64,000 bases of DNA from Candidatus Liptonbacteria bacterium (GTDB lineage Bacteria; Patescibacteriota; Minisyncoccia; UBA6257; 2-01-FULL-56-20). Position numbers and translations under genes: made by a program. The notes below the pieces were generated by a model that was not told the DNA's origin, ran no database searches, and saw only the letters and a list, made by a program, of their open reading frames with translations. How positions within the stretch are numbered: the first letter of the stretch is position 1; each line of letters opens with the position of its first letter. Of this stretch, positions 32,897 through 54,741 are shown in pieces. The stretch spans positions 335,702 to 399,701 of the forward strand of contig JAHFLL010000001.1 of NCBI GenBank assembly GCA_023244895.1, given 5' to 3'.

Positions 32897-34144
32897 ATGG
32901 GCGTCATGCGAAAATACTCTGGCTTATTACTGGCCCTTATCGTGGCCTTGGCGGTTGCGTCCGGTTTCTTCGTCTATCCCAAAAGCGAGTGGTCTAACAA
33001 GTGGCAGCCCTGGCGGCTCGGTTTGGATTTGGCCGGAGGAGCTCATTTGGTGTACAGAGTGGACCTTTCCAAAGTTAATCCCAGCGACCAACAGTCCGTC
33101 TTGGACGGTTTGCGAGACGTAATTGAGAGAAGGGTAAATTTGTTCGGCGTATCCGAGCCGCAGGTGTACGTGGCGAAGTCCGGCGAGAATTCCGAACTAG
33201 TAGTGGAATTGGCTGGTGTCACGAGCGTGGACCAGGCTATAAAAAATATTGGCGAGACTCCAATTTTGGACTTTCGCGAGGTAGAGGAAGGTCCCTCCAG
33301 CACGATAAACTACGTGTATACCAATCTGACCGGTCAATACATGACCGGCGCCCAGTTAACGTACAATCAGACTACCGGCGCGCCGGAAGTAGCTATTTCA
33401 TTCAACGAAGAAGGTGGCAAAATATTTGAGAAAATAACCGAGGCCAATATTGGAAAACCGCTAGCCATTTTCTTGGATAATGGCCTGGTAAGCGCGCCTA
33501 CGGTTCAGAATAAGATTAGCGGCGGCAGCGCGGTTATCAACGGCGTATCTCTTGCGGAGGCCAAGGACATGATCCAGAGATTCAACGCGGGAGCCTTACC
33601 TGCGCCCATAAGTTTGGTTGACCAAATGTCTATCAGCCCCAGCCTTGGCACAGACTCTCTGAAGTCCGCCGTCTGGGCCGGTTTCCTCGGAACTCTTCTG
33701 GTAATGTTGTTTATGGTCGGTTACTACCGCAAACTTGGTATTTTTGCCTCCTTGGCTCTCGTCATATATATACTCCTCACGCTCGGGGTATTTAAGATAT
33801 TCGCCATCACTATGACCTTGGCCGGCGTAGCCGGATTCATTCTGACTATCGGTATGGCGGTGGACGCGAACATTCTTATTTTTGAAAGAGTAAGGGAGGA
33901 GCTTAAAAAGGGCTTGTCTCGGGCAGCCGCTATGCACGAAGGTTTTAAGCGCGCCTGGCCTTCTATCCGGGATTCAAACACCAGCACCTTTATCACTGCG
34001 GCCATTCTTTACTTCTTTACCACCAGCTTCGTGAAGGGTTTCGCCCTGAACTTGGCACTGGGAGTGGCCATCTCCCTTTTCTCCGCTATTACCACCACGC
34101 GCTTGCTATTGGAGGTGTTTATGAAAGATAAAAAAGCACAATAA
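32897..34144 (+). CDS. secD: Protein translocase subunit SecD
   Basis: Periplasmic domain plus a 6-TM SecD/SecF C-terminus. Confidence 0.9.
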   Translation: MGVMRKYSGLLLALIVALAVASGFFVYPKSEWSNKWQPWRLGLDLAGGAHLVYRVDLSKVNPSDQQSVLDGLRDVIERRVNLFGVSEPQVYVAKSGENSELVVELAGVTSVDQAIKNIGETPILDFREVEEGPSSTINYVYTNLTGQYMTGAQLTYNQTTGAPEVAISFNEEGGKIFEKITEANIGKPLAIFLDNGLVSAPTVQNKISGGSAVINGVSLAEAKDMIQRFNAGALPAPISLVDQMSISPSLGTDSLKSAVWAGFLGTLLVMLFMVGYYRKLGIFASLALVIYILLTLGVFKIFAITMTLAGVAGFILTIGMAVDANILIFERVREELKKGLSRAAAMHEGFKRAWPSIRDSNTSTFITAAILYFFTTSFVKGFALNLALGVAISLFSAITTTRLLLEVFMKDKKAQ

Positions 34145-34149
34145 CTAAT

Positions 34150-35067
34150 ATGCACACCAATATTAACGTAGTTGGTAATCGCAGGATATTCTTAGGCATT
34201 GCGGCCGCTTTAATCGCGGCGGCAATTCTCGCGATAGTGATTTTCAAATTTGAACCGGGCGTGGATTTCAGCGGGGGAGCCTTGATTAAATTTAAGTTAG
34301 CCAATCAGGTTGACACGGAAGAGCTCCAAAAATATTTTGTGGAAGAGCTCAAATTTCCAGAGACTCGCGTAAGCTATGATCCAGTAACCGCTAGCTATCT
34401 CGCGCGCCTACCGGGAGACGTAAGCAGTGAGCACGAAAGAATAACCGCTGGTCTGACCACGAAGCTTTCTGGTTTTGAGGAGCAGTCCTTCCAGTCCATT
34501 GGTCCATCCATTGGAGCGGAGCTTCGCAAAAAATCTATAATTGCCATGATCTTGGTTTTGGTCGGAATCTCCTTTTATGTGGCTTATGCGTTTCGCAAGG
34601 TTTTCCGCCCGGTTAGTTCCTGGAAGTACGGCTGGGTAACACTCATGTCCCTTTTCCACGACGTGGTGATTCCCGCCGGACTCTTGGCCGTTATGGGTCA
34701 CTTCTTCGGCGTGGAGATTGACGGTAACTTTGTGGTGGCACTTCTGGTTATCATGGGATTCTCGGTGCACGACACGATTGTGGTTTTTGACCGTATCCGC
34801 GAAAACTTGGTTCTGGATCGGGGCAAGAGCGAGTTTGGTCACGTTATCAATCGTAGCGTGAACGAAACCCTGGCCCGCTCCATAAACACCTCGCTCACCC
34901 TTATTATCGTGTTGCTGGCCCTTTATTTTGCTGGCCCGGCAGCCCTTAAGTACTTCATTCTGACCCTTCTGGTAGGAGTCACAACCGGTATATACTCTTC
35001 AGTATTCGTAGCCAGTCCATTGCTTCTTATATGGCACAACTGGTCTAACCGCCACAAAACAAATTAG
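34150..35067 (+). CDS. secF: Protein translocase subunit SecF
   Basis: Adjacent to secD; conserved SecF TM core. Confidence 0.9.
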   Translation: MHTNINVVGNRRIFLGIAAALIAAAILAIVIFKFEPGVDFSGGALIKFKLANQVDTEELQKYFVEELKFPETRVSYDPVTASYLARLPGDVSSEHERITAGLTTKLSGFEEQSFQSIGPSIGAELRKKSIIAMILVLVGISFYVAYAFRKVFRPVSSWKYGWVTLMSLFHDVVIPAGLLAVMGHFFGVEIDGNFVVALLVIMGFSVHDTIVVFDRIRENLVLDRGKSEFGHVINRSVNETLARSINTSLTLIIVLLALYFAGPAALKYFILTLLVGVTTGIYSSVFVASPLLLIWHNWSNRHKTN

Positions 35068-35132
35068 TTGTCAAAGCCAGGGGTATTGTCAATCTTGACT
35101 GGTAGGGTATAGTAGGATATAATCAAAAAGTT

Positions 35133-36167
35133 ATGAAATATTCCGCCAACAAGTTAGTAGACAACCTATTGGAGTCTTTAAACGAACGTCAGCGGGAGGT
35201 TTTGGTTGGTCGTTTCGGTCTGGGTAAAAGTGGCAAGTCTGAAACCCTGGCCTCTTTAGGTGCGCGTTACCGGGTAACCCGTGAAAGAGTGCGTCAGATT
35301 GAGGCTTCTGCCCTCCAGATTTTAAAGAAGCATATCTCTCAAAATTCCGTTTGCCAGGAAATATTGGAGCGGGGCAAGAAAGAACTCAAGGAGGCGGGCG
35401 GAGTATTGAAGGCGGATGAATTACTGAAGCTTTTAAAAGATATCGCGGATGATCTAACCCAGAATCAATTGGCGATGATTTTGGAATCTTCCAAGTCCTT
35501 CTTTTTCTATCCGGAAGATAAAGACCGCTGGCATTTCTACGCTTTGGACAAGAATAGTTTTAAAAACGCCGCGCTTCTGGTAGAAAAGTGGACCGCTCTC
35601 TTGCAGGCTAAAAAGGAACACGTCCTGAATGGGAAATATGAAGTTTTGTGGGACGAGTTCGTGAGCAAAAGAGATTTAAAAGCGCATCACGCCAAAAATC
35701 ACCTTTCAATTTCCAAAAAGATACATCGCAATCCTTATGGCGACACCGGTCTCGCGGAATGGTCCGAGATCTTGCCGCGCACTATTCGGGACAGAGTTTA
35801 TCTAATATTGCGTAAAAAGAAGGAACCAATGCACTTCCGCAATATCGCCAAAGCGATAAACGAGATGTTCAAAGCTCGCAGTCAGGCTTCCGCTCCTACC
35901 GTTCATAACGAGCTCATCAAAGATGATCGTTTCGTATTAGTGGGCAGGGGAATATACGCTTTGCGCGAGCATGGCTACGAGCCGGGTACGGCCAAAGAGG
36001 TAATAGTAAGGATTTTAAAGCGCCACGGCTCATTGCGTCCCAAAGATGTTATCCTAGCCGTGCAGAAAGAGCGTTTCTTTAAGCCCAATACCGTACTCGT
36101 TAATCTTCAGAATAGGAACCATTTCACTCGCAAGAAAGACGGAACCTACATAGTGAGGGAGGCGTAG
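35133..36167 (+). CDS. DNA-binding protein with an N-terminal sigma-70 region-4-like HTH and a C-terminal HARE-HTH (RpoE-delta-like) domain
   Basis: RQREVLVGRFGL...TLASLGARYRVTRERVRQIEASALQILKK, and C-terminal PMHFRNIAKAI. Confidence 0.5.
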   Translation: MKYSANKLVDNLLESLNERQREVLVGRFGLGKSGKSETLASLGARYRVTRERVRQIEASALQILKKHISQNSVCQEILERGKKELKEAGGVLKADELLKLLKDIADDLTQNQLAMILESSKSFFFYPEDKDRWHFYALDKNSFKNAALLVEKWTALLQAKKEHVLNGKYEVLWDEFVSKRDLKAHHAKNHLSISKKIHRNPYGDTGLAEWSEILPRTIRDRVYLILRKKKEPMHFRNIAKAINEMFKARSQASAPTVHNELIKDDRFVLVGRGIYALREHGYEPGTAKEVIVRILKRHGSLRPKDVILAVQKERFFKPNTVLVNLQNRNHFTRKKDGTYIVREA

Positions 36168-36279: not shown

Positions 36280-37674
36280 ATGGAGGTGGCCGTCAAGCTG
36301 ATTAACGACGTATTGGTATTTGCCTGGGAGTTATTTACCTGGACCTGGTGGTTTTGGTTGTTTTTAATCCTGCAGGGATTAGCGGTTTCTACCTGGTTGT
36401 TCTGGCGCAGAGAATGGTATAAAAAATATGATCTGAAGAGGATCATTATGGAGATAAGAGTTCCTCGAGAAATTACCAAAAGTCCGCGGGCCATGGAGCA
36501 GGTTTTAGCGTCCATGCACTCCATGATCAACGAGGCCGGAAACTTGAGGGAGAAATGGTGGGACGGGGAGGTTGTGCGCTGGTTTACTTTAGAGATGACC
36601 AGTTTCGGTGGAGAGATACACCTCTATGTCACTATGTATCACAAATACCGCAATCTGGTGGAGGCGGCATTCTATTCCTACTATCCGGACGTGGAGCTGG
36701 AGGAGGTGGAGGATTACACCGGTCGTTTCCCGGAAAATGTCCAGGAGATGTATGCTCAGGGGTATGACATGTGGGGCACGGAAATGGTCTTAGCCAAAGA
36801 ATCATTTTACCCGATAAAGACCTATGAGGATTTCGAGTCGCCGGACGAAGATAAGCAGTACGACCCTATTTCTGCTTTCTTGGAAGTATTGAGTCAGGTT
36901 AAGCCGGAACAGATGGTGGGTATTCAGATACACATTACGCCCGTCTGGCCAAATCAGTGGAGGGGCAAATATGAGGAAAAGATTAAGGAGCTAAAAGAAA
37001 GCGCGCAGAAGGGAGGTGGAAAGGGCAATGGCAAATCCGCCAAGATGAATGTCTCCTTTGAAAATGGCCCCTTGCCCATTTTTGAAGTGCAGAAGATGGA
37101 AGAAAAGAAAAGCGATTTTGACGCTCTAAAATCCTTATCGCGTTCCCCGGGAGAGACGGAAACTCTGCGAGCGGTAGAAGAAAACTTGTCCAAACAAGCT
37201 TTTAAAACTCTGGTTAGGTTTATCTATCTTTCTCCGGTCGCGCTGTACTACGACAGTTTCGCGCGCCGCGGTTTGGCTGGCTCTTTTAATCAATACGGCA
37301 CGACGGATATGAACTTCTTTATCAGAAACGACTTGGTTTCCACCAAGGTTGATTTTTGGACTTGGGGCATACCGCGCTTTTTCCCGGCTATTCGCAGAGA
37401 ATACCGTAAGCAACGTTTGCTATACAACTATTGTAAGCGTAAGAAGCCGCTTTCCAATTTTATGGGCAGGGTAATAACTTCTCACTTTTTCAATTGGAAC
37501 TTTTCTTCCAAGGAATTTTTGATGAATACAAAATGCTTAGCGACTTTGTTCCACCCGCCCACCAGCATGGTTCTTACCGCGCCCCACATTCGCAGAGTAG
37601 AAAGTCGCAAAGCTGGACCTCCCGCTGGGTTGGCTATTTTCGGGGACGAAGACGAATTGGAAAAGTTTTTGTAA
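36280..37674 (+). CDS. Hypothetical membrane protein (N-terminal Trp-rich TM hairpin), first gene of the T4CP-like ATPase locus
   Basis: FTWTWWFWLFLILQGLAVSTWLFW; TAAAAT 7 nt before the ATG. Confidence 0.5.
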   Translation: MEVAVKLINDVLVFAWELFTWTWWFWLFLILQGLAVSTWLFWRREWYKKYDLKRIIMEIRVPREITKSPRAMEQVLASMHSMINEAGNLREKWWDGEVVRWFTLEMTSFGGEIHLYVTMYHKYRNLVEAAFYSYYPDVELEEVEDYTGRFPENVQEMYAQGYDMWGTEMVLAKESFYPIKTYEDFESPDEDKQYDPISAFLEVLSQVKPEQMVGIQIHITPVWPNQWRGKYEEKIKELKESAQKGGGKGNGKSAKMNVSFENGPLPIFEVQKMEEKKSDFDALKSLSRSPGETETLRAVEENLSKQAFKTLVRFIYLSPVALYYDSFARRGLAGSFNQYGTTDMNFFIRNDLVSTKVDFWTWGIPRFFPAIRREYRKQRLLYNYCKRKKPLSNFMGRVITSHFFNWNFSSKEFLMNTKCLATLFHPPTSMVLTAPHIRRVESRKAGPPAGLAIFGDEDELEKFL

Positions 37675-37680
37675 ATAAAT

Positions 37681-38235
37681 ATGTTTACCGTAGCTACCTC
37701 CACAACTTTAATACAAAAGACCATAGCTTTTCTAAGGGACCTGCCCGGTTGGGAGTATTTGCATCCCGCTTATAACTTTTTGAAGGTCGTATTTATTATT
37801 TTGGACATTCTTCTATTCGGCATATTCGTCTTTGCTTTCTATAAATCGTTAGAATATAGACCTCATCTGGAGCTGACTCGCAAGCCCAGATCGGGATCTA
37901 AAACTTTACGTCTAGATTTAATAGAGAGCCGTTGGAAGAAAATTATGCAACGCAAGAAAGAGGGAAACCTGGATTCTTTGCGGATTGCCATTATAGAGGC
38001 GGACTCTTTAGTGGATGACGTTCTAAAGCAGAAGGGAGTCCCGGGAGAGCATATGGCAGATCGCTTGTCCAATCTGGATACATCCGACTTGCCATCCATC
38101 GAAAAGCTATGGGCCGCGCATCGTTTGCGCAACGATCTGGTGCACACCTCCGGCTTTTTCGTTTCTCCCGACAACGCCTCCACCACCCTGGAAAGTTATC
38201 ATGTTTTTCTGAAGGAGTTGGGCGCTCTGAACTAA
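37681..38235 (+). CDS. Hypothetical single-TM protein
   Basis: ORF, 6 nt after the previous gene. Confidence 0.4.
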   Translation: MFTVATSTTLIQKTIAFLRDLPGWEYLHPAYNFLKVVFIILDILLFGIFVFAFYKSLEYRPHLELTRKPRSGSKTLRLDLIESRWKKIMQRKKEGNLDSLRIAIIEADSLVDDVLKQKGVPGEHMADRLSNLDTSDLPSIEKLWAAHRLRNDLVHTSGFFVSPDNASTTLESYHVFLKELGALN

Positions 38236-38239
38236 AAAT

Positions 38240-39682
38240 ATGGCCAGAACAAATAAGGTTCAAATAATTAAATACGCTCCGCCTCCTGCGGAACTGCCGA
38301 TGTATGGTCAGGTTAGCCCCAAAGACGCTTCTTTTATTGGTCGTACGAATTATGTCGCCGCGCTGGAGGAAAAGAAATTTATTTTTGGCATAAAGCGGGT
38401 GGACCGTCGTCGGCACCTATACATTATCGGCAAAAGCGGGGTAGGCAAGTCCAAGCTACTGGAACTTCTAATCAGGCAGGATATTGCCTTCGGTCACGGC
38501 GTGTGCCTAATAGATCCGCACGGAGAGACAATTGACGCGGTTTTGGATGCAGTTCCGGAGAATAGAGTGGACGACGTGGTTATTATTGACCCCTCCGATA
38601 TCAATTATCCCGCCTCCTTTAATCCTCTGGCCAATATAGATATGAATTTCAAGCACCAACTTACTCAGGGCTTGATCGAGGTTATGGAGAAACAATTCGG
38701 CGCTAACTGGACTCCGCGCTTGGAACACGTTTTCCGCTTTACCTGTCTCGCGCTCTTGGACTACCCCCATGCCACTATGCGCGGCATGATTTCAATGCTG
38801 ACCGACCGCAACTACCGCCAGAAAGTGGTGGAATATATAGAAGACGATATGGTCAAACGTTTCTGGGCGATTGAATTCGCGGATTGGTCGGAGAAGTTTG
38901 ATACCGACGCCATTATCCCCTTGGTTAACAAGTTGGGTCAGTTTTTGTCCGATCCTATGTTGCGTAATATTTTTGGACAGAAGGAAAATAAAATTGATTT
39001 GGAGAAATTAATGAACTCCAAAAAACTCATTTTTATCAACCTGTCTAAGGGTAAAATAGGCGAAGAGAATTCCAGTTTTTTCGGTTCCATGTTTATTACC
39101 AAGATTAAACAGGCCGGTATGGCGCGCGCCAATATTCCAGACTCGGAACGTCATGATTTTTACCTGTACGTAGATGAGTTCCATAATTTAGTTACGGAGA
39201 CGTTTGAAAATATTTTATCCGAAGCCAGAAAATACGGTCTATGTATGACTTTCGCGCATCAATACGTGGGTCAGCTTATCCCGCGCGTGGCCGCGGCTGT
39301 TTTGGGCAACGTGGGCAGTATGATTACTTTTCGCGTGGGTGGAGACGACGCGGTTAAGCTTAAACCGGAGTTTGAGCCTATTTTTGACGTAAAAGATATG
39401 ATTAACCTAGGAGTGGGCGAGTTTTATATTAAGATGACGATTGACGGAGAGTCTTACGATCCTTTTTCCGCAAGCACCCTCAGGGTTATGCCCATGCCCT
39501 ACAAGTCCAATAAAGAAAAGATATATGAATCCTCCCGTCGTAAATATGCCATATCCGCGGACGCGGCCAAGAAGCTTATCGCGGAAGAGGAGGCAACCAT
39601 ATTCCGTAGCGCCCAAGAGAAAGCTATAATTGAGGGCAAGAAGGGCGCTCCGCCTCCGTCTAACCCCGAGCCTTTAATCTAA
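38240..39682 (+). CDS. TraD/TrwB/VirD4-like (type IV coupling-protein-like) P-loop ATPase lacking a TM domain
   Basis: Walker A YIIGKSGVGKS followed by LIDPHGE (compare TraD GTTGSGKS...IVDPNGD); Walker B FYLYVDEF. Confidence 0.65.
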   Translation: MARTNKVQIIKYAPPPAELPMYGQVSPKDASFIGRTNYVAALEEKKFIFGIKRVDRRRHLYIIGKSGVGKSKLLELLIRQDIAFGHGVCLIDPHGETIDAVLDAVPENRVDDVVIIDPSDINYPASFNPLANIDMNFKHQLTQGLIEVMEKQFGANWTPRLEHVFRFTCLALLDYPHATMRGMISMLTDRNYRQKVVEYIEDDMVKRFWAIEFADWSEKFDTDAIIPLVNKLGQFLSDPMLRNIFGQKENKIDLEKLMNSKKLIFINLSKGKIGEENSSFFGSMFITKIKQAGMARANIPDSERHDFYLYVDEFHNLVTETFENILSEARKYGLCMTFAHQYVGQLIPRVAAAVLGNVGSMITFRVGGDDAVKLKPEFEPIFDVKDMINLGVGEFYIKMTIDGESYDPFSASTLRVMPMPYKSNKEKIYESSRRKYAISADAAKKLIAEEEATIFRSAQEKAIIEGKKGAPPPSNPEPLI

Positions 39683-39705
39683 AGGTCGTAATAAAGAAAA
39701 CCAAC

Positions 39706-40011
39706 ATGGTATTTATATATACCACCTGCCTGGACCAAGATTCGGCAGGGGGAGTTTGCCAGGCAATCATGGACCGTCGTCTGGCTTTTTCGGTGCACGT
39801 TACTCCGGTGGAATCAATCCACATTACGAGCGATAGCTACGAGAAAAGGCCGGAATATTCTATCCTGATAAAGACCAATGAGACCAAGATGCAGGATATT
39901 GAAGACGAAATAGTGGCGCACTCCAATGATCCCAACCCTTTTATCGGGGTAGTTGACATTCGTCGATTAAACCACGATTATAAAGAGCGGGTTTCCCACC
40001 TAATTCAATAA
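39706..40011 (+). CDS. cutA: CutA1 divalent-cation tolerance protein homologue
   Basis: VFIYTTCLDQDSAGGVCQAIMDRRLAFSVHVTPVESIH matches the CutA N-terminal consensus. Confidence 0.6.
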   Translation: MVFIYTTCLDQDSAGGVCQAIMDRRLAFSVHVTPVESIHITSDSYEKRPEYSILIKTNETKMQDIEDEIVAHSNDPNPFIGVVDIRRLNHDYKERVSHLIQ

Positions 40012-40020
40012 AGCGGAATC

Positions 40021-40188
40021 ATGCTGTATTACATCTTAGGTGCCGTACTGGCAATAATAGCGATTATTCTGGTGGTGGCCGTGATTAAGGCCTGCATTTA
40101 TCATCAGGAGATAAAACATCTCAAAAAAACAATCTACAGTTTGTCTGGAGACGAAGAGACCGAGCACTACGACAAGTCTGGTGGTTGA
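40021..40188 (+). CDS. Possible 55-aa single-TM miniprotein (below the ORF-track size cutoff)
   Basis: ATG..TGA read manually; MLYYILGAVLAIIAIILVVAVIK... Confidence 0.2.
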   Translation: MLYYILGAVLAIIAIILVVAVIKACIYHQEIKHLKKTIYSLSGDEETEHYDKSGG

Positions 40189-40241
40189 TAACAAACTTGG
40201 AATAATTCAGTTTTGGTGGTTTTTGTTTTATAATCTAACAG

Positions 40242-42098
40242 ATGGGAGCTGATCCCGATCGAGACGTAATTTATTTTGGTAAGACCGACTTCCGCGACAA
40301 GCAGCGGCTTTTTGGTATAAAAAGAAAAGACCGCCGCCAGCACGTTTATATCATAGGTAAAACCGGTACCGGCAAAAGTGCTTTAGAGCACAATATGATT
40401 ATTCAGGACATCGTAAACGGGGAGGGCGTGTGCGTGGTGGATCCGCACGGAGAGCTGGTGGAAGGCGTCTTGCATATGATTCCCACGGAACGTAAGGATG
40501 ACGTGATCTATTTCAATCCTGCGGACGTGGATTTTAATATAGGTTTTAATATTTTGGATTTACCCGACCCTAAATATAAGCATTTAGTCGCGTCCGGCTT
40601 GATGGGTATTTTTACCAAAATATGGGCGGGAGTCTGGTCCGCCAGAATGGAATACATTTTAAACAACGCTATTTTGGCGCTCTTAGACAACCCGGGCACA
40701 ACACTCCTCGGCGTAACGCGCATATTGGTGGACAAAGACTATCGCCAGCGAATTATCGCGAACGTGGACGATCCGGTGGTTAAGGCTTTTTGGATCAACG
40801 AATTTGAGCAATGGAAAGACCAGTTCCGCAATGAAGCCATAGCTCCTATTCAAAACAAGGTAGGTCAGTTTCTGTCTACCGGACTCATCCGTAATATTGT
40901 CGGTCAGTCCAAGAGCACGCTGGATATATTTAAGGCCATGAACGAGGGCAAAATTCTTTTAGTTAATGTCTCAAAAGGTAGGATCGGAGAGGATAACTCT
41001 TCTTTGCTGGGCGCTATGATCATTACTAAAATACAGCTGGCGGCAATGGAAAGAGTTCGTATCCCGGAAGATGAGCGCGTGGATTTTTATCTTTATGTAG
41101 ACGAATTCCAAAATTTCGTGACGGACGCTTTCGCGAGCATTCTTTCGGAAGCGCGCAAGTATCGCCTTAATTTGATTATGGCGCACCAATACATCGGACA
41201 ATTGGTCACCGATCAGTCTACCGCAGTGCGCGACGCGGTTTTCGGCAACGTCGGGACCATGATAGCCTTCCGAGTAGGCGCGGCCGACGCGGAATTTTTG
41301 GAACAGGAGTTTGAGCCGGAATTCGTGATCCAGGATTTGGTTAATCTTCCCAACTATCGTATCTATCTGCGCATGATGGTGGGCGGCATAAGCAGCCGGC
41401 CATTTTCCGCCGCGACCCTTCCGCCTTTTATGCCCCGGCATGGTTCTAACCTGCAGGAGATTATAAATGCTTCCCGCGCGAGATACGCCCGTCCGCGGGA
41501 AATCGTGGAAGAAGAAATAAAGTCTTGGGCCAGTTCCATGACCCAATCCATGCTTTCCGCGTCCGACGATGACAGCACAGGAGCCTTTGAGGGAACCTGT
41601 TCCGTGTGTGGTAAGAAAATCAGGTTGCCGTTTGAGCCGACCCCGGGGCGGCCGGTTTACTGCAAAGCAGACCTGGCTAAAATCAAGAGCGGAGAAATAT
41701 CTCCTCCCTCCCGCGCCAAGGCGCAGAGAGGGGAAAACCAAGAAGAAGTTGCCTCCGACCATTATGCCGCTCTGGCGGGTCTGGGTATTGAATTTCCTCC
41801 GGAAGAAGTTAAAAGTAAAATTAAAGAAAGACCGGCGGAGAGAAGGCCCGTGGAGCAAGGCAGGGAGAGGAGGGTTGTGCCCTCCGCGCCTCCCCGAAAA
41901 GAGGAATCGCCTCGCAGGCCGGAGCCGCCTCGCAAAGAAGAGCCGGTCAAGACCTTAGGCCTGTCGGAATTGGTGCCTCAAGACAAGAAGCCCAAACCTC
42001 ACAACGAGAAAAAAGATCAGGCGGAAGTAAACGTGGAAGAGTTAAGACAGGCCATTGCCGCATCTCTGATGCAAGCGAACGAAAATGAAAAAGAATAA
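40242..42098 (+). CDS. Second TraD/VirD4-like coupling-protein-like ATPase, with a Lys/Glu/Pro-rich C-terminal tail containing a zinc-ribbon-like motif
   Basis: YIIGKTGTGKS...VVDPHGE, YLYVDEF. Tail CSVCGKKIRLPFEPTPGRPVYC. Paralogue of 38240..39682. Confidence 0.65.
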   Translation: MGADPDRDVIYFGKTDFRDKQRLFGIKRKDRRQHVYIIGKTGTGKSALEHNMIIQDIVNGEGVCVVDPHGELVEGVLHMIPTERKDDVIYFNPADVDFNIGFNILDLPDPKYKHLVASGLMGIFTKIWAGVWSARMEYILNNAILALLDNPGTTLLGVTRILVDKDYRQRIIANVDDPVVKAFWINEFEQWKDQFRNEAIAPIQNKVGQFLSTGLIRNIVGQSKSTLDIFKAMNEGKILLVNVSKGRIGEDNSSLLGAMIITKIQLAAMERVRIPEDERVDFYLYVDEFQNFVTDAFASILSEARKYRLNLIMAHQYIGQLVTDQSTAVRDAVFGNVGTMIAFRVGAADAEFLEQEFEPEFVIQDLVNLPNYRIYLRMMVGGISSRPFSAATLPPFMPRHGSNLQEIINASRARYARPREIVEEEIKSWASSMTQSMLSASDDDSTGAFEGTCSVCGKKIRLPFEPTPGRPVYCKADLAKIKSGEISPPSRAKAQRGENQEEVASDHYAALAGLGIEFPPEEVKSKIKERPAERRPVEQGRERRVVPSAPPRKEESPRRPEPPRKEEPVKTLGLSELVPQDKKPKPHNEKKDQAEVNVEELRQAIAASLMQANENEKE

Positions 42099-42741
42099 AA
42101 AAATCAGGTTTGATTTCTTGACCGTTTTTCCGAACATCTTGGATTCATATTGGCAGGAGTCTTTGTGGAAGCGGGCTATGGCGCGAGGGATTATTGAGGT
42201 TAATTTTCATAATCTACGGGACTACTCTTTGGAGAAGCATCGTAAGGTGGATGACCGCCCTTTTGGTGGGGGACCGGGTATGGTTTTGCAGATAGAGCCT
42301 ATCTATCGCGCGCTTAAGAAAATAAACGCGCGCAAAAAAGGGCGCGTTATTCTTCTTTCCGCCCGGGGTAAAAAATTCAGCCAAAAAGATGCCTTGCGCC
42401 TATCCAAGTACGATCAGATTATATTTTTATGCGGACGCTACGAAGGCGTAGACGAAAGAGTTGCGCTCAATATAGCGGACGAAGAAATATCCGTTGGCGA
42501 TTATGTTCTAAGCGGAGGAGAGCTGCCGGCGATGGTTATCGCGGAAGCGGTGGCGCGTCACCGAGAAGGGTTCTTGGGCAAGGCGGAATCACTGGAAGAA
42601 GTTAATGGTTCTTTTGCGACCTACACCCGTCCGCCTGTCTTCTATCCGGAAAAGAACAACAAAAGGAGGTCCTGGCGGGTTCCTAAAGTTCTTCTGGGCG
42701 GAAACCATAAAGAAATTGAGACATGGCGGCGGCGCGCTTAG
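42085..42741 (+). CDS. trmD: tRNA (guanine37-N1)-methyltransferase TrmD
   Basis: DDRPFGGGPGMVL signature. Confidence 0.9.
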   Translation: MKKNKKIRFDFLTVFPNILDSYWQESLWKRAMARGIIEVNFHNLRDYSLEKHRKVDDRPFGGGPGMVLQIEPIYRALKKINARKKGRVILLSARGKKFSQKDALRLSKYDQIIFLCGRYEGVDERVALNIADEEISVGDYVLSGGELPAMVIAEAVARHREGFLGKAESLEEVNGSFATYTRPPVFYPEKNNKRRSWRVPKVLLGGNHKEIETWRRRA

Positions 42742-44123
42742 CACCTATCGCGGGCGGAGCTTTTATTTTAGGAGTGATCGCGGCCAATCTTGATTGGTCT
42801 TTATTTTTTTTAATAGTTCTAATTTTTGGGAGCTTAGTTCCATTGAGGCTTAAAAGCCGAACGGAATATTCCTCAATAATATTTTCCGCTTTCTGTCTGC
42901 TCGGATTTGTTTATGCCCTCGTTTTCTCCAATTGGTTGGTAACGAGTCGTATTCTGCCGGAGGGGGTTATTTCCGGGAAGATAATTTCGGACCCGGAAGA
43001 TTCCGAACGCTACAGCTATTTCGTAGTTAATTTGGATTCTCCCGGGAAAGGGGTGGTAAGAGCGCGCGCCGATTCTATAAATGATCTGCGCTATGGAGAT
43101 AGATTCTCCGCGCGGGGCGATTGGCGTTGGAGCGGAAACAAAAAGGAGACGCCCTTATTTCTATCGAAAGAGATTAAAGTTTTAGACCAGGAGCCGGAAT
43201 TCAGTCTCAAAGGGGAGCTGTACTCTTTCAAGAATCGCTTAACGGATAAATTCCGTAAATATCTCGGTAGAGACGCGTCTGCTCTAGCGGCAGGCATAAC
43301 TCTGGGCGACACCTCCGGCTTTTCCTATGAGCTGAAAGAAGATATGAAAAAGAGCGGCACTACGCACTTGGTCGCGCTTTCGGGTTACAATATAAGCTTG
43401 GTGGTAACTTTAATCTCTTATTTATTCGGCCTATGGCTCAGCCGGAGCAAATCTTTTTGGTTGACCGTCCTCTCCATCCTGATATTCACGGTTATGACCG
43501 GAGCGGCTAGTTCCGTTTCACGCGCCGCCATTATGGGAGTGCTCGTGCTTCTAGCTGGTAAAGTGGGACGCTTTTATGATCCCGAAAGAGCTATAATTTT
43601 CGCGGCGGGGACGATGTTGTTATTCAATCCGCTCCTATTTAAAAATGATCTTGGATTTACTCTTTCCTTTCTGAGTTTCGCGGGTATGGCGTATTTGGAG
43701 CCTATCTTTAAGCGTTTCTTAGGCTGGGATAAACTGGAGCGAATCTCCGGTTGGCGGGAAAACTTCTTGCACACGCTTTCCGCTCAAGCCGCGGTTTTGC
43801 CGTTGCTGATGCTATATTTAGGCTCCTTTTCGCTGACGTCCATACTGGCTAATATTTTAGTCCTGAGCGTTACCCCTCTCGCCATGCTCCTGGGCTTTAT
43901 GTCCCTTTTCGCGGGCTTAGCCTTTGAATTCTTGGGGCAGCTGCTCGCCTGGCTGCTCGCTCCAATCCTGATCTATCAACTCGCAATTATCAGAATATTT
44001 TCGGCATGGAGCGTGCCCATGGATTATCTGAATTTGTTTGGTCCCTGGCCGATATATATTTTTTCACTTGGATTGGTCTGGCTGGTGATTAGAGATAAAA
44101 TACTTAAAAAGAATCATGCCTAA
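42723..44123 (+). CDS. comEC: ComEC/Rec2 DNA-internalisation channel (competence domain only)
   Basis: GTTHLVALSGYNISLVV and multi-TM topology. Confidence 0.8.
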   Translation: MAAARLAPIAGGAFILGVIAANLDWSLFFLIVLIFGSLVPLRLKSRTEYSSIIFSAFCLLGFVYALVFSNWLVTSRILPEGVISGKIISDPEDSERYSYFVVNLDSPGKGVVRARADSINDLRYGDRFSARGDWRWSGNKKETPLFLSKEIKVLDQEPEFSLKGELYSFKNRLTDKFRKYLGRDASALAAGITLGDTSGFSYELKEDMKKSGTTHLVALSGYNISLVVTLISYLFGLWLSRSKSFWLTVLSILIFTVMTGAASSVSRAAIMGVLVLLAGKVGRFYDPERAIIFAAGTMLLFNPLLFKNDLGFTLSFLSFAGMAYLEPIFKRFLGWDKLERISGWRENFLHTLSAQAAVLPLLMLYLGSFSLTSILANILVLSVTPLAMLLGFMSLFAGLAFEFLGQLLAWLLAPILIYQLAIIRIFSAWSVPMDYLNLFGPWPIYIFSLGLVWLVIRDKILKKNHA

Positions 44124-44985
44124 TAGCTCGTCTCGCAAAAGGTTATTTTACGCGATAACGCTCCTCGTCATTTTCAATTTGTTTATCTGGTTAAAAGTTA
44201 TTTACGGCGCGGGCGTTTTGCCGGCGGAGATATTTTTCTTGGATGTCGGACAGGGAGACGCAAGTTTAATAAAACTTAAGGGCGGACACAAAATATTGAT
44301 AGACGGAGGTCCCGACCCGGGGCTGGTGGGTAAGCTGGACGAGGCTGTGGGGCAAGAACATAAATACTTGGATCTCGTAGCGGTTAGCCATCCCCAGAGA
44401 GATCATTTTGCCGGTCTAAATTATCTGCTGGATTATTATGATGTAGGAGCCTTCTTGTATTCCGGTCGTGATCCGCTGGAAAGCGAGACGGAGTGGCAAG
44501 CTCTCAAGGCAAAACTGCGAGAGAAGAACGTTCCCATATTAGCCCTGCGCCAGAGAGATTCTATAAAGATCGGTTCGGATAGTATAGATGTCCTTTCTCC
44601 CAGTTTGGAATTTTGGCAGAGCGGAGAGTTAAATGACACCAGCTTGGTCTTATGGCTTAAAACAGAGGGTGCGAAGGCTTTGTTTGTGGGCGACATAGGG
44701 GAGTCGGTGGAACGAGCAATTTTGTCTCAAAGCGGTGTTTCCGCGGATATCCTTAAGATTGGGCACCATGGCTCCAAATATTCCAGCAGTCCCATATTCT
44801 TATCTCAAATAAAACCGCTAGTGAGTATTATCTCGGTTGGAGCGCGCAATAACTATGGACACCCCTCTCCGTTGGTCATAGACAGACTAAAAAACGAAGA
44901 AAGTAGCATTTTCCGAACAGATCAGAATGGAACCATTCGGATTAACTTGGGAGAAAATAGGTTGCGAGTGTTCACGGAAAGATAA
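44116..44985 (+). CDS. ComEC-associated metallo-beta-lactamase-fold domain protein (split from comEC)
   Basis: FLDVGQGDASLI...VAVSHPQRDHFAGL MBL motifs; overlaps the comEC stop. Confidence 0.75.
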   Translation: MPNSSSRKRLFYAITLLVIFNLFIWLKVIYGAGVLPAEIFFLDVGQGDASLIKLKGGHKILIDGGPDPGLVGKLDEAVGQEHKYLDLVAVSHPQRDHFAGLNYLLDYYDVGAFLYSGRDPLESETEWQALKAKLREKNVPILALRQRDSIKIGSDSIDVLSPSLEFWQSGELNDTSLVLWLKTEGAKALFVGDIGESVERAILSQSGVSADILKIGHHGSKYSSSPIFLSQIKPLVSIISVGARNNYGHPSPLVIDRLKNEESSIFRTDQNGTIRINLGENRLRVFTER

Positions 44986-50274: not shown

Positions 50275-50276
50275 AA

Positions 50277-51572: not shown

Positions 51573-51867
51573 GAGGGATTTAGGCAGAAATTATTTCTTC
51601 AATGGTAGGACAAGGCTTGTTTTACGATAGATTAGTTAATCTGTTGCAAAACAAGCATAATCTTTTGCGTCAGGTATGCTATCCCATATATCTGACGTAA
51701 AAGATATATTGGGCGACAGGTGCTATAGAGAGAAAGAGCCCTTCCCCCTCCGGAATCAGTGTTACTCAAATTATCGATTGTTAATCATTTATTATTGTTA
51801 ATTTGGTATAATTAACTGGTATTGGATTAAAGGTCGAAAGCAAATAAAACTACTCCTTTAAACCAAA

Positions 51868-52074
51868 ATGAAAGTTATACATATGGTGGCCTTCATTCTC
51901 CTAGTCATAGGAGGCTTGAACTGGCTCTTGACCGGACTTATCTCCGGTTGGGACTTGGCTAGCTACCTGGGCCCCACGCTCGCCATGATTATCTATATCT
52001 TGGTCGGCTTGTCCGCGATTTGGGAAGTTGCGACTCACAAGAAAAACTGCAAGGCTTGTGACGCTTCTATGTAA
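51868..52074 (+). CDS. DUF378-family small membrane protein
   Basis: ILLVIGGLNWLLTGL...YILVGLSAIW. Confidence 0.55.
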   Translation: MKVIHMVAFILLVIGGLNWLLTGLISGWDLASYLGPTLAMIIYILVGLSAIWEVATHKKNCKACDASM

Positions 52075-52163
52075 GAGGTATATCATTTAGTTCGTCAGTT
52101 AAACCAAGAGCGGAATCTGTGAGGGGTTCCGTTTTTGGTTTTCTGTGCTTTAATATACTTCAT

Positions 52164-53591: not shown

Positions 53592-53617
53592 AAGTCTTTA
53601 ATTAAAATATCCACATA

Positions 53618-54091: not shown

Positions 54092-54180
54092 TACCGACGA
54101 CAAATTGATTGAAAAACCTTCTAGCCATATAATAAGGATTAAACGTGAAAGAAGTATCGTGAAGAATTAATATAAGACAT

Positions 54181-54513: not shown

Positions 54514-54623
54514 GCAATAGAATCAGAAATATACTTTTGCCCTACCACATACTTGGAGCATTTTAGGGACTCCCGAAGAGGGCGCGTCTCCCTATATTCG
54601 TAATACTAATTTATATCAACATA

Positions 54624-54652: not shown

Positions 54653-54741
54653 GTACCTCGTTTGTCCTTGGGAAATGACTCCCCTGGACGGACTTCAATT
54701 CTCGGCGGCGCCTAGCGCCGCGATGCCTTGCGGAGGGCACC

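What the first reader, a model, noticed from the sequence alone, without database searches (positions are those of the whole stretch)
36280..44985. Tandem TraD/VirD4-like ATPases with membrane proteins next to split comEC
Two paralogous coupling-protein-like P-loop ATPases (38240..39682 and 40242..42098) are present. Each has Walker A immediately followed by the TraD/TrwB-type (I/V)DPHGE motif, and neither has the N-terminal TM anchor of a bona fide T4CP. They are preceded by a 464-aa Trp-rich membrane protein and a 184-aa TM protein. Between them are a CutA homologue and a 55-aa TM miniprotein. After them come trmD and a split ComEC DNA-uptake channel. Neither VirB4 nor other T4SS core genes, nor ComFA, were seen here. 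One hypothesis is that these soluble T4CP-like motors dock on the upstream membrane proteins and power DNA uptake or export through ComEC-type machinery in this lineage. This arrangement is poorly characterised.
Basis: partly seen in the sequence, partly recalled or inferred. Interest (0 to 1): 0.6.

Follow-up and report, generated by a model that had tools for sequence, protein, structure and literature searches.

The report
Split type IV coupling protein, Patescibacteria
The two 'soluble' TraD/VirD4-like ATPases and the 464-aa protein upstream are the separated halves of one type IV coupling protein, conserved across these ultrasmall bacteria and accompanied here by a membrane-anchored HEPN protein; the neighbouring ComEC DNA-uptake gene is an incidental neighbour.

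Summary
In detail: every ORF and motif is at the stated coordinates.

**Docking on the upstream membrane protein: supported.**
- The 464-aa protein is Pfam DUF8128, with an N-terminal hydrophobic anchor and a ~410-aa cytoplasmic domain.
- That domain is homologous to the N-terminal region of long conjugative T4CPs. hhalign gives probability 99.1%, E=5e-19 against Bacillus pBM69, and 92%, E=5e-7 against Embleya/Streptomyces.
- The NBDs of those same T4CPs are the ATPases' best conjugative relatives (E down to 9e-70).
- The gene pair is therefore a split T4CP.

**Other components.**
- The 184-aa protein is a single-pass membrane protein with a HEPN domain and an invariant R-N-x3-H motif.

**Gene order across 80 species.**
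- DUF8128→TM184 in 78/78 loci; an ATPase follows in 64/66.
- A σ70-region-4/HARE-HTH gene lies upstream in 70/76.
- ComEC lies within 10 kb in only 6/46.

**Distant lineages.** They keep σ4/HARE-HTH→DUF8128→ATPase2-type, without the HEPN gene.

**Context.** The 64-kb window is core chromosome, with no VirB4, relaxase or integrase.

**Function.** It is unknown. The most likely role is substrate receptor and motor for the Patescibacteria T4SS. A T4SS-independent role is not excluded.

The parts
35133..36167 (+). Sigma-70 region 4 + HARE-HTH protein (344 aa), the conserved upstream partner of the module
   Evidence: Pfam Sigma70_r4 at residues 12-66 (1.4e-13) and HARE-HTH at 217-279 (1e-7). TRERVRQIE at residues 49-57 and TVHNELI at 256-262. 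Directly upstream of DUF8128 in 70/76 species loci and in all three distant loci L086-L088. Best promoter-like site of the region (11/12) at 35095-35123. Not related to MOB_L relaxases.
36280..37674 (+). DUF8128 protein (464 aa): N-terminal hydrophobic anchor plus a cytoplasmic domain homologous to the N-terminal region of long monoderm T4CPs. This is the anchor half of the split T4CP.
   Evidence: Homologues carry PF26449/DUF8128. AF2 model pLDDT 84.9. hhalign against the pBM69 T4CP N-terminal region: probability 99.1%, E=4.9e-19. Against actinobacterial T4CP N-terminal regions: probability 92.3%, E=5.4e-7, with clean controls. Foldseek top 13 PDB hits are all TrwK/VirB4. The family has 2,461 clusters at 50% identity. 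Absent from 72,556 plasmids.
37681..38235 (+). TM184: single-pass membrane protein with a cytoplasmic HEPN domain (R150-N-D-L-V-H155, nt 38128-38145)
   Evidence: TM segment about residues 29-58. AF2 pLDDT 91.3. Foldseek top hits are HEPN proteins: SO_3166, HepT, AF_0298, ST0689, Csm6; probability about 1, TMt 0.55-0.59. R150, N151 and H155 are invariant in 54 homologues. Follows DUF8128 in 78/78 loci. Absent in distant loci L086-L088.
38240..39682 (+). ATPase1 (480 aa): TMD-less T4CP-type NBD. Walker A at nt 38429-38452, DPHGE at 38513-38527, Walker B at 39167-39181.
   Evidence: Pfam TrwB_AAD_bind 1e-9, T4SS-DNA_transf 4e-9, TraG-D_C 2e-5, DUF87 3e-10. blastp to the Embleya T4CP NBD E=8e-63 and pBM69 E=3e-30. 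Median 79% identity across species, higher than SecD at 62%. Follows TM184 in 64/66 loci.
39706..40011 (+). CutA1-like protein (101 aa): a facultative neighbour between the two ATPases
   Evidence: Pfam CutA1 4.9e-14. Within 10 kb downstream in 14/46 loci, often directly after ATPase1.
40021..40188 (+). 55-aa single-TM miniprotein; not conserved
   Evidence: Hydrophobic segment at residues 1-31. tblastn match only in the closest relative, L005.
40242..42098 (+). ATPase2 (618 aa): T4CP-type NBD plus a C-terminal treble-clef zinc finger (nt 41598-41663) and a Lys/Glu/Pro-rich tail. Orthologue of the ATPase that follows DUF8128 in distant lineages.
   Evidence: Pfam TrwB_AAD_bind 1e-11, TraG-D_C 3e-6, zf_Tbcl_2 2.7e-9. 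54-60% identical to the ATPases of L086-L088, against 47-49% for ATPase1. blastp to the Embleya T4CP NBD E=9e-70. The fourth Cys of the finger is replaced in this genome (YCKAD).

Best explanation
The module is a type IV coupling protein (T4CP) whose two halves are encoded as separate genes.

**Shown**
- DUF8128 (36280-37674) corresponds to the N-terminal region of a subclass of long T4CPs found in monoderm conjugative clusters (Bacillus pBM69, Embleya, Streptomyces).
- ATPase2 and ATPase1 correspond to the NBD of those same proteins.

**Inferred**
- DUF8128 is inserted in the membrane by its N-terminal hydrophobic hairpin, with its ~410-aa domain in the cytoplasm. The basic stretch RREWYKKYDLKR follows the anchor.
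- DUF8128 serves as the docking platform on which the TMD-less ATPases assemble, presumably as hexamers that may mix the two paralogues.
- ATPase2, with its zinc finger and basic tail, is the ancestral partner. ATPase1 is an older paralogue. In this clade ATPase1 sits in the operon together with TM184.
- TM184 places a dimer-prone HEPN domain with an intact R-x4-H site next to the motor. It may act as an adaptor, as the HEPN domain of Agrobacterium VBP does for VirD4, or as an RNase.
- The σ70-region-4/HARE-HTH protein encoded just upstream is a conserved DNA- or RNAP-binding partner.

**Inferred, least certain**
- The complex is the substrate receptor and ATP-driven translocase for the chromosomal MPF-FATA-type T4SS that Patescibacteria encode elsewhere. 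That T4SS cluster lacks a recognisable coupling protein.
- The substrate is unknown. The module is not mechanistically tied to ComEC.
For: **Both halves are collinear with fused T4CPs**
- DUF8128 profile against the pBM69 T4CP N-terminal region: probability 99.1%, E=4.9e-19, 270 columns.
- Against three actinobacterial T4CPs: probability 92.3%, E=5.4e-7, 323 columns. The family invariants D195-P196 and the ELA.L.H.P motif are shared.
- Reversed, shuffled and unrelated controls give P of 0.07-0.95.
- The ATPases hit the NBDs of the same proteins at E from 9e-70 to 3e-30. They hit TrsK only at E>=0.01 and the VirB4s at 1e-3 to 8e-6.
- Those fused T4CPs sit beside replication-relaxation relaxases, VirB4-like, PrgI and TrbL genes.

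**Gene order**: 78/78 and 64/66. The pairing persists at about 30% DUF8128 identity.

**Tight spacing**: 6-nt and 4-nt gaps between the three genes.

**T4CP signatures**.

**Fold**: DUF8128 resembles only TrwK/VirB4 in the PDB. The VirB4 N-terminal domain (residues 15-400) is the membrane-proximal platform that binds VirB3 and the VirB8 tails (PMC9259494).

**Precedents**
- A recognised T4CP subfamily lacks a TMD and pairs with small membrane proteins (TraJ/TraI of pIP501; PMC7434980).
- The HEPN-containing protein VBP binds VirD4 (PMC3953389).

**Patescibacteria context**
- The T4SS is of MPF-FATA ancestry, and its T4CP homologues are encoded away from virB4 (PMC12102498).
- The S. epibionticum T4SS cluster has no recognisable coupling protein (PMC10633639).
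- S. epibionticum has a 921-aa T4CP with its NBD starting near residue 400, directly downstream of a 349-aa 'RpoS'. It also has a second, essential T4CP-like protein of 1,019 aa.
Against: - No T4SS gene lies within the 64-kb window.
- In the published census, T4CP homologues occur in 2,918 genomes but VirB4 in only 2,417. At least about 500 genomes therefore have the former without a detected VirB4.
- SEML1_0293 is non-essential although the T4SS genes are essential.
- ATPase1 is more conserved than SecD or TrmD, which is unusual for a coupling protein.
- No relaxase is present.
- Physical interaction, oligomeric state, membrane topology and substrate are all untested.
- The VirB4-like fold rests on one protein in the PDB, at TM-score 0.31-0.36 with no sequence signal.
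- The orthology of SEML1_0293 and SEML1_0294 to the window genes is inferred from annotation, size and position only.
Confidence: 0.55

Rival explanations
1. Exapted housekeeping translocase. The split T4CP no longer serves a T4SS. It works on its own at the membrane as a nucleic-acid translocase or processor. The σ4/HARE-HTH protein would act as the DNA- or RNAP-binding specificity factor and the HEPN protein as a nuclease.
For: - Core-chromosome context.
- Conserved linkage to σ4/HARE-HTH and SecDF even at about 30% identity.
- ATPase1 is 79% identical across species.
- T4CP homologues are found in more genomes than VirB4, and the authors state that exaptation cannot be ruled out.
- The families are flagged as core and Patescibacteria-enriched. 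SEML1_0294 and SEML1_0142 are essential.
- The R-x4-H motif is invariant.
- ATPase2-type proteins carry a basic tail and a zinc finger.
Against: - No channel-forming polytopic protein belongs to the conserved core.
- The closest relatives of both halves are conjugative T4CPs.
- SEML1_0293 is dispensable.
- No specific process can be named from the data.
Confidence: 0.25
2. One reading: the soluble motors power DNA uptake or export through ComEC.
For: - ComEC is adjacent in the window and in a few relatives.
- T4CPs bind and translocate ssDNA (established knowledge of TrwB; PMC7434980).
- No ComFA-like motor was seen in the window.
Against: - ComEC lies within 10 kb in only 6/46 loci.
- Distant loci have unrelated downstream genes.
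- The region is one long co-directional gene array.
- ComEC is dispensable for growth in S. epibionticum, whereas one T4CP-like paralogue is essential.
Confidence: 0.1
3. Anti-phage or conflict system built from a HEPN effector and a P-loop ATPase.
For: - HEPN fold with an intact R-x4-H motif.
- The ATPases hit PADLOC mad8 (1e-13) and HerA models.
Against: - Vertically inherited at a fixed chromosomal position across 80 species.
- Very high conservation.
- No PADLOC hit for DUF8128 or TM184.
- HEPN is absent from the deeper form of the module.
Confidence: 0.03
4. Remnant of an integrated conjugative element, or HerA/FtsK-family ATPases mis-read as T4CPs.
For: - DUF87 (HerA central domain) is hit above its cut-off.
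- The best non-Patescibacteria relatives are on plasmids.
Against: - No integrase, relaxase or T4SS genes in 64 kb, and no marked compositional break across the module at 36-42 kb (GC 0.45-0.49).
- There is no FtsK_SpoIIIE Pfam hit, and no HerA or FtsK chain in the profile-against-PDB search.
- DUF8128 is absent from 72,556 plasmids.
Confidence: 0.03

Closest known systems
Long monoderm conjugative T4CPs with a DUF8128-type N-terminal region (Bacillus methanolicus pBM69 WP_003349917, 833 aa; Embleya sp. WP_331738717, 812 aa; Streptomyces sp. BHT-5-2)
   Same: - Both halves are homologous and collinear. The N-terminal region matches DUF8128 (hhalign 99.1%/5e-19 and 92%/5e-7) and the NBD matches ATPase1 and ATPase2 (E from 3e-30 to 9e-70).
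- The Embleya protein has one N-terminal TM helix, like DUF8128.
   Different: - They are single polypeptides.
- They are plasmid-borne, next to a replication-relaxation relaxase, VirB4-like, PrgI and TrbL genes.
- The window has separate genes, two NBD paralogues, a HEPN protein inserted between the halves, no relaxase or T4SS nearby, and a chromosomal housekeeping context.
T4CPs lacking a TMD: TraJ with the small membrane protein TraI of pIP501
   Same: A soluble T4CP whose membrane attachment is supplied by a separately encoded membrane protein. This is a recognised T4CP subfamily (PMC7434980).
   Different: - The partner here is a 464-aa protein with a large cytoplasmic domain, not a small TM protein.
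- Homology of DUF8128 to TraI was not tested.
- pIP501 is a conjugative plasmid with a relaxase.
TrwB (R388) and VirD4, the canonical T4CPs
   Same: - Walker A followed by the (V/I)DP(N/H)G(D/E) motif, and Walker B.
- TrwB_AAD_bind, TraG-D_C and T4SS-DNA_transf signatures.
- TrwB is the best solved relative, E=2e-6.
   Different: - No TMD in the ATPase polypeptide.
- Very low overall identity.
- Scores are far below the NCBIfam equivalog cut-offs (for example 50 against 250 bits).
VirB4 (TrwK) with VirB3
   Same: - The DUF8128 model's only significant PDB matches are TrwK (E from 1e-4 to 9e-4).
- DUF8128's cytoplasmic part is the size of the VirB4 N-terminal domain (residues 15-400).
- Its N-terminal helical hairpin parallels the TM helices of VirB3, which wraps that domain.
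   Different: - No sequence similarity to TrsD, TrsE, the Embleya VirB4-like protein or any PDB sequence.
- TM-score is only 0.31-0.36.
- The region of TrwK that is matched was inferred, not read from an alignment.
- The ATPases are closer to T4CPs than to VirB4.
Agrobacterium VBP (VirD2-binding protein; nucleotidyltransferase + HEPN)
   Same: A HEPN-domain protein that dimerises through HEPN and binds the VirD4 T4CP, and also VirB4 and VirB11, as a recruiting or docking factor (PMC3953389).
   Different: - VBP is soluble and has a nucleotidyltransferase domain.
- TM184 is membrane-anchored, has no such domain, and keeps a canonical R-N-x3-H motif.
- Direct homology was not tested.
S. epibionticum SEML1_0294 / SEML1_0293, and SEML1_0141 / SEML1_0142
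   Same: - A 349-aa 'RpoS'-annotated gene lies directly upstream of a T4CP (TrwB_AAD_bind at 402-719 of 921 aa).
- There is a second T4CP-like paralogue.
- All are flagged as core, Patescibacteria-enriched families.
   Different: - The N-terminal region and NBD appear to be fused there.
- Fitness calls: 0293 non-essential; 0294 and 0142 essential.

Membership tests
Type IV coupling protein (VirD4/TraG/TraD/TrwB) | P-loop NBD with Walker A and Walker B, invariant across the family | tested here: met
   GKSGVGKS / YVDEF in ATPase1 and GKTGTGKS / YVDEF in ATPase2. G64, K65, G67, G69, K70, D312 and E313 are invariant in 26 ATPase1/ATPase2 sequences.
Type IV coupling protein (VirD4/TraG/TraD/TrwB) | Sequence match to T4CP family models above curated thresholds | tested here: met
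   - Pfam TrwB_AAD_bind 38-45 bits (cut-off 20.5), T4SS-DNA_transf 27-36 (20.1), TraG-D_C 25-28 (22).
- Family profile against PDB: TrwB 2e-6, DotL 0.03.
- NCBIfam equivalog cut-offs are NOT reached, for example conju_CD1115 at 50 against 250 bits.
Type IV coupling protein (VirD4/TraG/TraD/TrwB) | All-alpha domain inserted between Walker A and Walker B | tested here: inconclusive
   About 240 residues separate the two motifs. The TrwB_AAD_bind alignment spans residues 56-366 to profile positions 14-310. No structure of the ATPase was predicted.
Type IV coupling protein (VirD4/TraG/TraD/TrwB) | N-terminal transmembrane domain in the same polypeptide | tested here: not met
   No hydrophobic 19-mer in either ATPase. 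The anchor is on the separate DUF8128 protein. A TMD-less subfamily is recognised.
Type IV coupling protein (VirD4/TraG/TraD/TrwB) | Encoded with a T4SS (VirB4, VirB6) and/or a relaxase | tested here: not met
   None in the 64-kb window.
Type IV coupling protein (VirD4/TraG/TraD/TrwB) | Hexameric, DNA-dependent ATPase that couples substrate to the channel | not testable with these tools
   Needs biochemistry and genetics.
DUF8128-type long T4CP (fused form) | N-terminal DUF8128-like region followed by a T4CP NBD, with both halves homologous | tested here: met
   for the N-terminal region and for the NBD. Here the two halves are on separate genes 6-560 nt apart.
Pfam PF26449 (DUF8128) | Match to the family model | tested here: met
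   Homologues 97-50% identical carry PF26449 in the precomputed annotation. The local Pfam copy lacks the model.
VirB4 | VirB4-type N-terminal domain fold | tested here: inconclusive
VirB4 | VirB4-type ATPase domain signatures (AAA_10 / CagE_TrbE_VirB / TIGR00929) | tested here: not met
   AAA_10 scores 17-18 bits against a cut-off of 27.5. TIGR00929 gives E=0.007 at 14.6 bits against 643.
HEPN superfamily (TM184) | Helical-bundle HEPN fold | tested here: met
   AF2 pLDDT 91.3. Foldseek hits to HEPN toxins and HEPN-domain proteins with probability about 1 and TMt 0.55-0.59, though E-values are only 0.02-0.1. No Pfam or NCBIfam hit.
HEPN superfamily (TM184) | Conserved R-x4-6-H motif | tested here: met
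   R150, N151 and H155 are invariant in 54 sequences. RNDLVH at residues 150-155.
HEPN superfamily (TM184) | RNase or nucleotide-binding activity | not testable with these tools
   Needs an enzyme assay.
HerA / FtsK-SpoIIIE | Closest family by profile | tested here: not met
   DUF87 is hit, but that model also covers VirB4 and T4CP relatives. No FtsK_SpoIIIE hit. No HerA or FtsK chain at E<=1 with the family profile.
ComFA-type competence motor | DEAD-box helicase fold and conserved linkage to com genes | tested here: not met
   The ATPases are FtsK/HerA-superfamily P-loops, not DEAD-box. ComEC lies within 10 kb in 6/46 loci.

The most novel reading that the evidence does not exclude
Across Patescibacteria a conjugative coupling protein was taken apart into an anchor (DUF8128) and motors (ATPase1 and ATPase2) and fixed in the core genome. 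It sits beside a σ70-region-4/HARE-HTH protein and, in this clade, a membrane-bound HEPN nuclease. On this reading the assembly works independently of the T4SS as a membrane-bound nucleic-acid translocation and processing machine of these nucleotide-auxotrophic epibionts. A corollary is that its N-terminal domain is a VirB4-NTD homologue. This T4CP subclass would then preserve the ancestral two-domain VirB4 architecture.
Probability: 0.2. Interest if true: 0.8.

Novelty: new variant of a known kind. Interest (0 to 1): 0.55.

Why it matters
**The open question it addresses**
- The Patescibacteria T4SS is essential for the epibiotic lifestyle. It is the first T4SS shown to be essential for the survival of the bacterium that carries it (PMC12857230).
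- Its substrate and its coupling protein are unknown. The S. epibionticum cluster has 'no recognisable coupling protein'.
- About 5,700 orphan VirD4-like genes were left unexplained.

**What this finding adds**
- These orphans form a split T4CP with a defined anchor (DUF8128, a family of 2,461 clusters at 50% identity that had no assigned function).
- The module has a conserved DNA- or RNAP-binding neighbour and, in one large clade, a HEPN partner.
- This gives a concrete, testable parts list for substrate recruitment.
- It assigns a role to a DUF.
- It identifies a so-far undescribed N-terminal domain in Bacillus and actinobacterial conjugative T4CPs.
- It removes a tempting but unsupported link to ComEC.

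Tried and rejected
- **DUF8128 against PDB sequences by profile:** nothing.
- **DUF8128 against pSK41 TrsD, TrsE and TrsK, and the Embleya VirB4-like protein, by hhalign:** nothing.
- **Permissive Pfam scan of 80 diverse DUF8128 members:** no recurrent family.
- **R388 record:** not in the plasmid collection.
- **Promoter and terminator scan:** counts at chance level.
- **Rfam:** only one tRNA in the window.
- **FtsK replacement idea** (anchor + motor + wHTH resembling a disassembled FtsK): no support, because TM7x has an annotated ftsK. Not pursued.
- **σ4/HARE-HTH as a disguised MOB_L relaxase:** rejected.
- **N-terminal region of the Bradyrhizobium 708-aa T4CP-like protein:** not DUF8128-like.
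- **Defence-system reading:** PADLOC gives only generic ATPase hits.
- **The GGKGNGKS string in DUF8128** (residues 246-253): it matches the Walker A pattern but lies in a non-conserved loop with pLDDT below 50. Treated as chance.
- **Supplement of PMC12102498:** figure legends only, so no per-genome co-occurrence table could be extracted.

Full report

Yes. All ORFs are present on the + strand at the stated coordinates. The two ATPases are paralogues: 45% identical over 441 aa, E=2e-136.

Each has a Walker A motif, a DPHGE motif about 20 residues later, and a YVDEF Walker B. Neither has a hydrophobic segment. Both exceed the Pfam gathering cut-offs for TrwB_AAD_bind, T4SS-DNA_transf, TraG-D_C and DUF87. 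ATPase2 also carries a treble-clef zinc finger, zf_Tbcl_2. Scores are far below the NCBIfam equivalog cut-offs.

CutA, TrmD and a two-ORF ComEC are confirmed. The ComEC split recurs in at least one relative, L003.

The organism is a Patescibacteria member close to Candidatus Liptonbacteria. An identical copy of the 184-aa protein sits on an 840,672-bp contig.

About 50 ORFs across the window are housekeeping genes: DnaB, CysRS, DnaK/DnaJ/GrpE, SecDF, FtsW, MurG, GltX, a Mur ligase, UvrC, Fmt, Def. None is VirB4, VirB6, a relaxase, an integrase or ComFA.

**2. What the upstream 'membrane proteins' are**

*The 464-aa protein.*
- It belongs to Pfam DUF8128 (PF26449), as shown in the precomputed annotation of its homologues. 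My local Pfam copy lacks that model.
- The family is large: 2,461 clusters at 50% identity with E<=1e-3. The top 150 are all stand-alone proteins of about 400-590 aa.
- A confident AlphaFold model (pLDDT 84.9, pTM 0.80) shows an N-terminal helical hairpin at residues 2-50 followed by alpha/beta domains.
- In distant homologues the hairpin is strongly hydrophobic. In the window protein it is Trp-rich.
- The basic stretch after it suggests that the large domain is cytoplasmic. This is an inference from the positive-inside rule.

*The 184-aa protein (TM184).*
- It has one TM helix and a helical domain, modelled at pLDDT 91.3.
- Its best structural matches are HEPN proteins.
- R150, N151 and H155 are invariant in 54 homologues, which is the canonical HEPN R-x4-H motif.

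**3. The key result: a split coupling protein**

ATPase1 has distant relatives on plasmids. Two of the conjugative ones were examined:
- **Embleya (812 aa).** It lies in a cluster with a TrbL-like protein, PrgI, a VirB4-like ATPase, a replication-relaxation protein and NlpC/P60.
- **Bacillus methanolicus pBM69 (833 aa).** It is followed by a replication-relaxation protein, conjugal transfer proteins and another ATPase.

In both, the match to ATPase1 covers only the C-terminal half. The N-terminal 300-400 residues are homologous to DUF8128:

| Comparison (DUF8128 profile of 80 sequences vs) | hhalign probability | E-value | Aligned columns |
|---|---|---|---|
| Embleya protein alone | 91% | 9e-7 | 129 |
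| Alignment of three actinobacterial N-terminal regions | 92.3% | 5.4e-7 | 323 (almost all of DUF8128) |
| pBM69 N-terminal region | 99.1% | 4.9e-19 | 270 |

Positions that are invariant across DUF8128 are shared, namely D195-P196 and the C-terminal ELA.L.H.P...AP...R...PP motif. Reversed and column-shuffled templates give P of 0.38-0.95, and unrelated alignments give P of 0.07-0.39.

The ATPases match the NBDs of these same proteins far better than other ATPases:

| Subject | ATPase2 E-value | ATPase1 E-value |
|---|---|---|
| Embleya T4CP NBD | 9e-70 | 8e-63 |
| pBM69 T4CP NBD | 7e-38 | 3e-30 |
| pSK41 TrsK (classical T4CP) | 0.011 | 5.5 |
| VirB4 proteins (TrsE; Embleya VirB4-like) | 8e-5; 8e-6 | 1e-3; 3e-3 |

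DUF8128 plus the ATPase is therefore collinear with a single-polypeptide T4CP subclass. This is a Rosetta-stone fusion. It is the strongest available evidence that the two gene products act together.

The general architecture, a TMD-less T4CP with a separately encoded membrane partner, is a recognised T4CP subfamily: TraJ/TraI of pIP501 (PMC7434980). I found no description of this N-terminal domain in the papers I read on pLS20-family plasmids, on T4CPs or on Patescibacteria T4SS.

**4. A weaker structural lead**

- The only significant PDB matches of the DUF8128 model are 13 chains of one protein, TrwK/VirB4 of R388: E from 1e-4 to 9e-4, probability about 1, but TM-score only 0.31-0.36.
- TrwB, HerA, FtsK and the VirB4-CTD crystal structure are absent from the list. 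The matched part must therefore be the VirB4-specific N-terminal domain, residues 15-400. That domain is wrapped by VirB3 and binds the VirB8 tails (PMC9259494). This step is an inference.
- If the lead is right, this T4CP subclass keeps a VirB4-like two-domain plan.

**5. Neighbourhood conservation**

Counts from 80 loci of distinct species, with DUF8128 46-83% identical to the window protein:

| Gene relative to DUF8128 | Loci with it / loci with enough sequence |
|---|---|
| TM184 directly after | 78/78 |
| A T4CP-like ATPase within 1.5 kb downstream | 64/66 |
| σ70-region-4/HARE-HTH gene upstream | 70/76 |
| SecDF further upstream | 56/65 |
| Second ATPase within 10 kb | 13/46 |
| CutA within 10 kb | 14/46 |
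| TrmD within 10 kb | 6/46 |
| ComEC within 10 kb | 6/46 |

Three loci with DUF8128 only about 30% identical show a simpler form:
- The order is (SecD-SecF-)σ4/HARE-HTH → DUF8128 → ATPase, with no TM184 gene.
- The ATPase there is the ATPase2-type orthologue: 54-60% identical to ATPase2 against 47-49% to ATPase1.
- It has a Lys/Arg-rich tail, with or without the zinc finger.

I infer the following:
- The older core is σ4/HARE-HTH + DUF8128 + ATPase2-type.
- TM184 + ATPase1 joined the operon in the window's clade.
- ATPase1 is probably an old paralogue. It evolves slowly (median 79% identity, against SecD 62%, TrmD 60%, ATPase2 64%, DUF8128 51% and TM184 41%), yet it is only 45-49% identical to ATPase2-type proteins.

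Gene spacing is tight: 6 nt between DUF8128 and TM184, and 4 nt between TM184 and ATPase1. The same is true of the unrelated genes downstream, with overlaps of 14, 19 and 8 nt. Adjacency alone therefore carries little weight in this genome.

**6. Literature context**

- **PMC12102498** reports 5,713 VirD4-like homologues in 2,918 of 3,035 Patescibacteria genomes, about two per genome. Only 148 lie near virB4. VirB4 itself was found in 2,417 genomes. The T4SS is of MPF-FATA (monoderm) ancestry. Relaxases are nearly absent. The authors state that exaptation of the T4CP 'cannot be ruled out'.
- **PMC10633639** shows that the S. epibionticum T4SS (SEML1_0006-0019) is essential and lacks a recognisable coupling protein in its cluster. 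ComEC is needed for transformation but not for growth.
- **Tables S1 and S2 of that paper**:

| Gene | Annotation and size | Notes | Fitness calls |
|---|---|---|---|
| SEML1_0293 | T4SS DNA-binding protein, 921 aa | TrwB_AAD_bind at 402-719, so an N-terminal region of about 400 aa | NE/NE/NE |
| SEML1_0294 | 'RpoS', 349 aa | Directly upstream of 0293 | ES/ES/ES |
| SEML1_0142 | Second T4CP-like protein, 1,019 aa | P-loop at 381-800 | ES/ES/ES |

  All three are flagged as core, Patescibacteria-enriched families. I infer from annotation, size and order, without sequences, that 0294/0293 is the fused counterpart of σ4/HARE-HTH → DUF8128 + ATPase.
- **PMC3953389** gives a precedent for a HEPN-domain protein working with a coupling protein. 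Agrobacterium VBP dimerises through its HEPN domain and binds VirD2, VirD4, VirB4 and VirB11.

**7. How it most likely works**

*Shown:*
- Homology of both halves to a fused T4CP.
- Intact catalytic motifs in both paralogues.
- Conserved gene order.
- The HEPN fold and motif.

*Inferred:*
- DUF8128 anchors and organises the ATPase ring at the cytoplasmic face of the membrane.
- ATPase1 and ATPase2 may form mixed or alternative rings.
- TM184 adds an adaptor or nuclease.
- The σ4/HARE-HTH protein supplies DNA or RNAP binding.

*Least certain:* the complex serves the T4SS encoded elsewhere in the genome.

The evidence for a T4SS role is the conjugative ancestry of both halves, the shared MPF-FATA origin and the missing coupling protein. 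The evidence against is that T4CP homologues outnumber VirB4-positive genomes, SEML1_0293 is dispensable, ATPase1 is unusually conserved and no T4SS gene lies nearby. I put the T4SS-coupled reading at about 0.45-0.55 and a T4SS-independent exapted role at about 0.25. The split-T4CP identity itself stands at about 0.85.

**8. Verdict**

The ComEC hypothesis is not supported.
- It is a new variant of a known kind: a TMD-less, split T4CP.
- Three parts appear to be undescribed: the role of DUF8128, the HEPN partner and the σ4/HARE-HTH linkage.
- Interest is moderate. It gives the open question of substrate recruitment by the essential Patescibacteria T4SS a concrete parts list, but no function has been demonstrated.

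Noticed in passing
window 4209-5987 (+), and the truncated ORF at 11-397 (+); loci L007-L084 downstream of ATPase1: A family of Cys-rich (36 Cys in 592 aa), CxxC-rich proteins of about 580 aa with no Pfam, NCBIfam or PADLOC hit. In 46 of the 80 species loci, 1-5 tandem copies (110 members) lie on the + strand, mostly just downstream of ATPase1. In the window the copies sit about 30 kb upstream instead. Many members carry segments near both ends that match an HMM of the ATPase2 zinc finger, with domain E-values down to about 1e-7. They could be cargo or adaptors of the module.
   Followed up: partly
window 35133-36167 (+): A protein with only sigma-70 region 4 (TRERVRQIE) plus a HARE-HTH domain, conserved directly upstream of DUF8128 from close relatives to lineages at about 30% identity. 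The likely S. epibionticum counterpart (SEML1_0294, annotated RpoS) is essential. It cannot be a complete sigma factor because it has no region 2.
   Followed up: partly
window 32897-35067 (+); L086 4162-6725; L087 3360-6547: SecD-SecF lies upstream of the σ4/HARE-HTH-DUF8128 block in 56/65 close loci and in two deeply diverged loci. In those two, SecD additionally carries a rotamase (PpiC) domain. The synteny is unusually deep. Whether it reflects function is unknown.
   Followed up: no
window 38240-39682 (+): ATPase1 is the most conserved protein of the neighbourhood: median 79% identity across species, against 62% for SecD, 60% for TrmD and 51% for DUF8128. This is atypical for coupling proteins, which usually diverge quickly.
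   Followed up: partly
window 42723-44123 and 44116-44985 (+): ComEC is encoded as two overlapping ORFs (8-nt overlap): DUF4131 + Competence, and the MBL domain. The same two-gene form is called in L003, so it looks like a lineage feature rather than a frameshift error.
   Followed up: partly
window about 50000-56000: GC skew changes sign from positive to negative at about 52 kb, where cumulative skew peaks. Gene orientation switches from + to - from about 55.7 kb. This may be a replication terminus or an inversion boundary.
   Followed up: no
window 55741-57438 (-): An AbiTii-domain protein (E=1e-41) lies next to an APH-type phosphotransferase. It is a small defence-like pair in an otherwise housekeeping window.
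   Followed up: no
window 14000-16800: The highest-GC stretch of the window (0.587 at 14-16 kb) holds two adjacent GCS2 (glutamate-cysteine ligase family 2) ORFs at 14721-15479 and 15484-16797. This could be a split or duplicated gene, or a foreign insert.
   Followed up: no
L081 7123-8625; L021 11898-13453: In L081 the ATPase1 orthologue contains an in-frame stop and is only 52% identical. In L021 it matches in two pieces. These may be pseudogenes or assembly errors.
   Followed up: no
L093 (Bradyrhizobium plasmid p131_1) 3026-5152; L089 (Sulfitobacter plasmid) 6992-8179: Proteobacterial plasmids carry orphan relatives of these ATPases. One is a 395-aa TMD-less protein, 36-41% identical, with no T4SS genes nearby. 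The other is a 708-aa protein whose N-terminal region is not DUF8128-like and which sits next to CHAT and TPR proteins. The NBD type has evidently been recruited to other contexts.
   Followed up: partly
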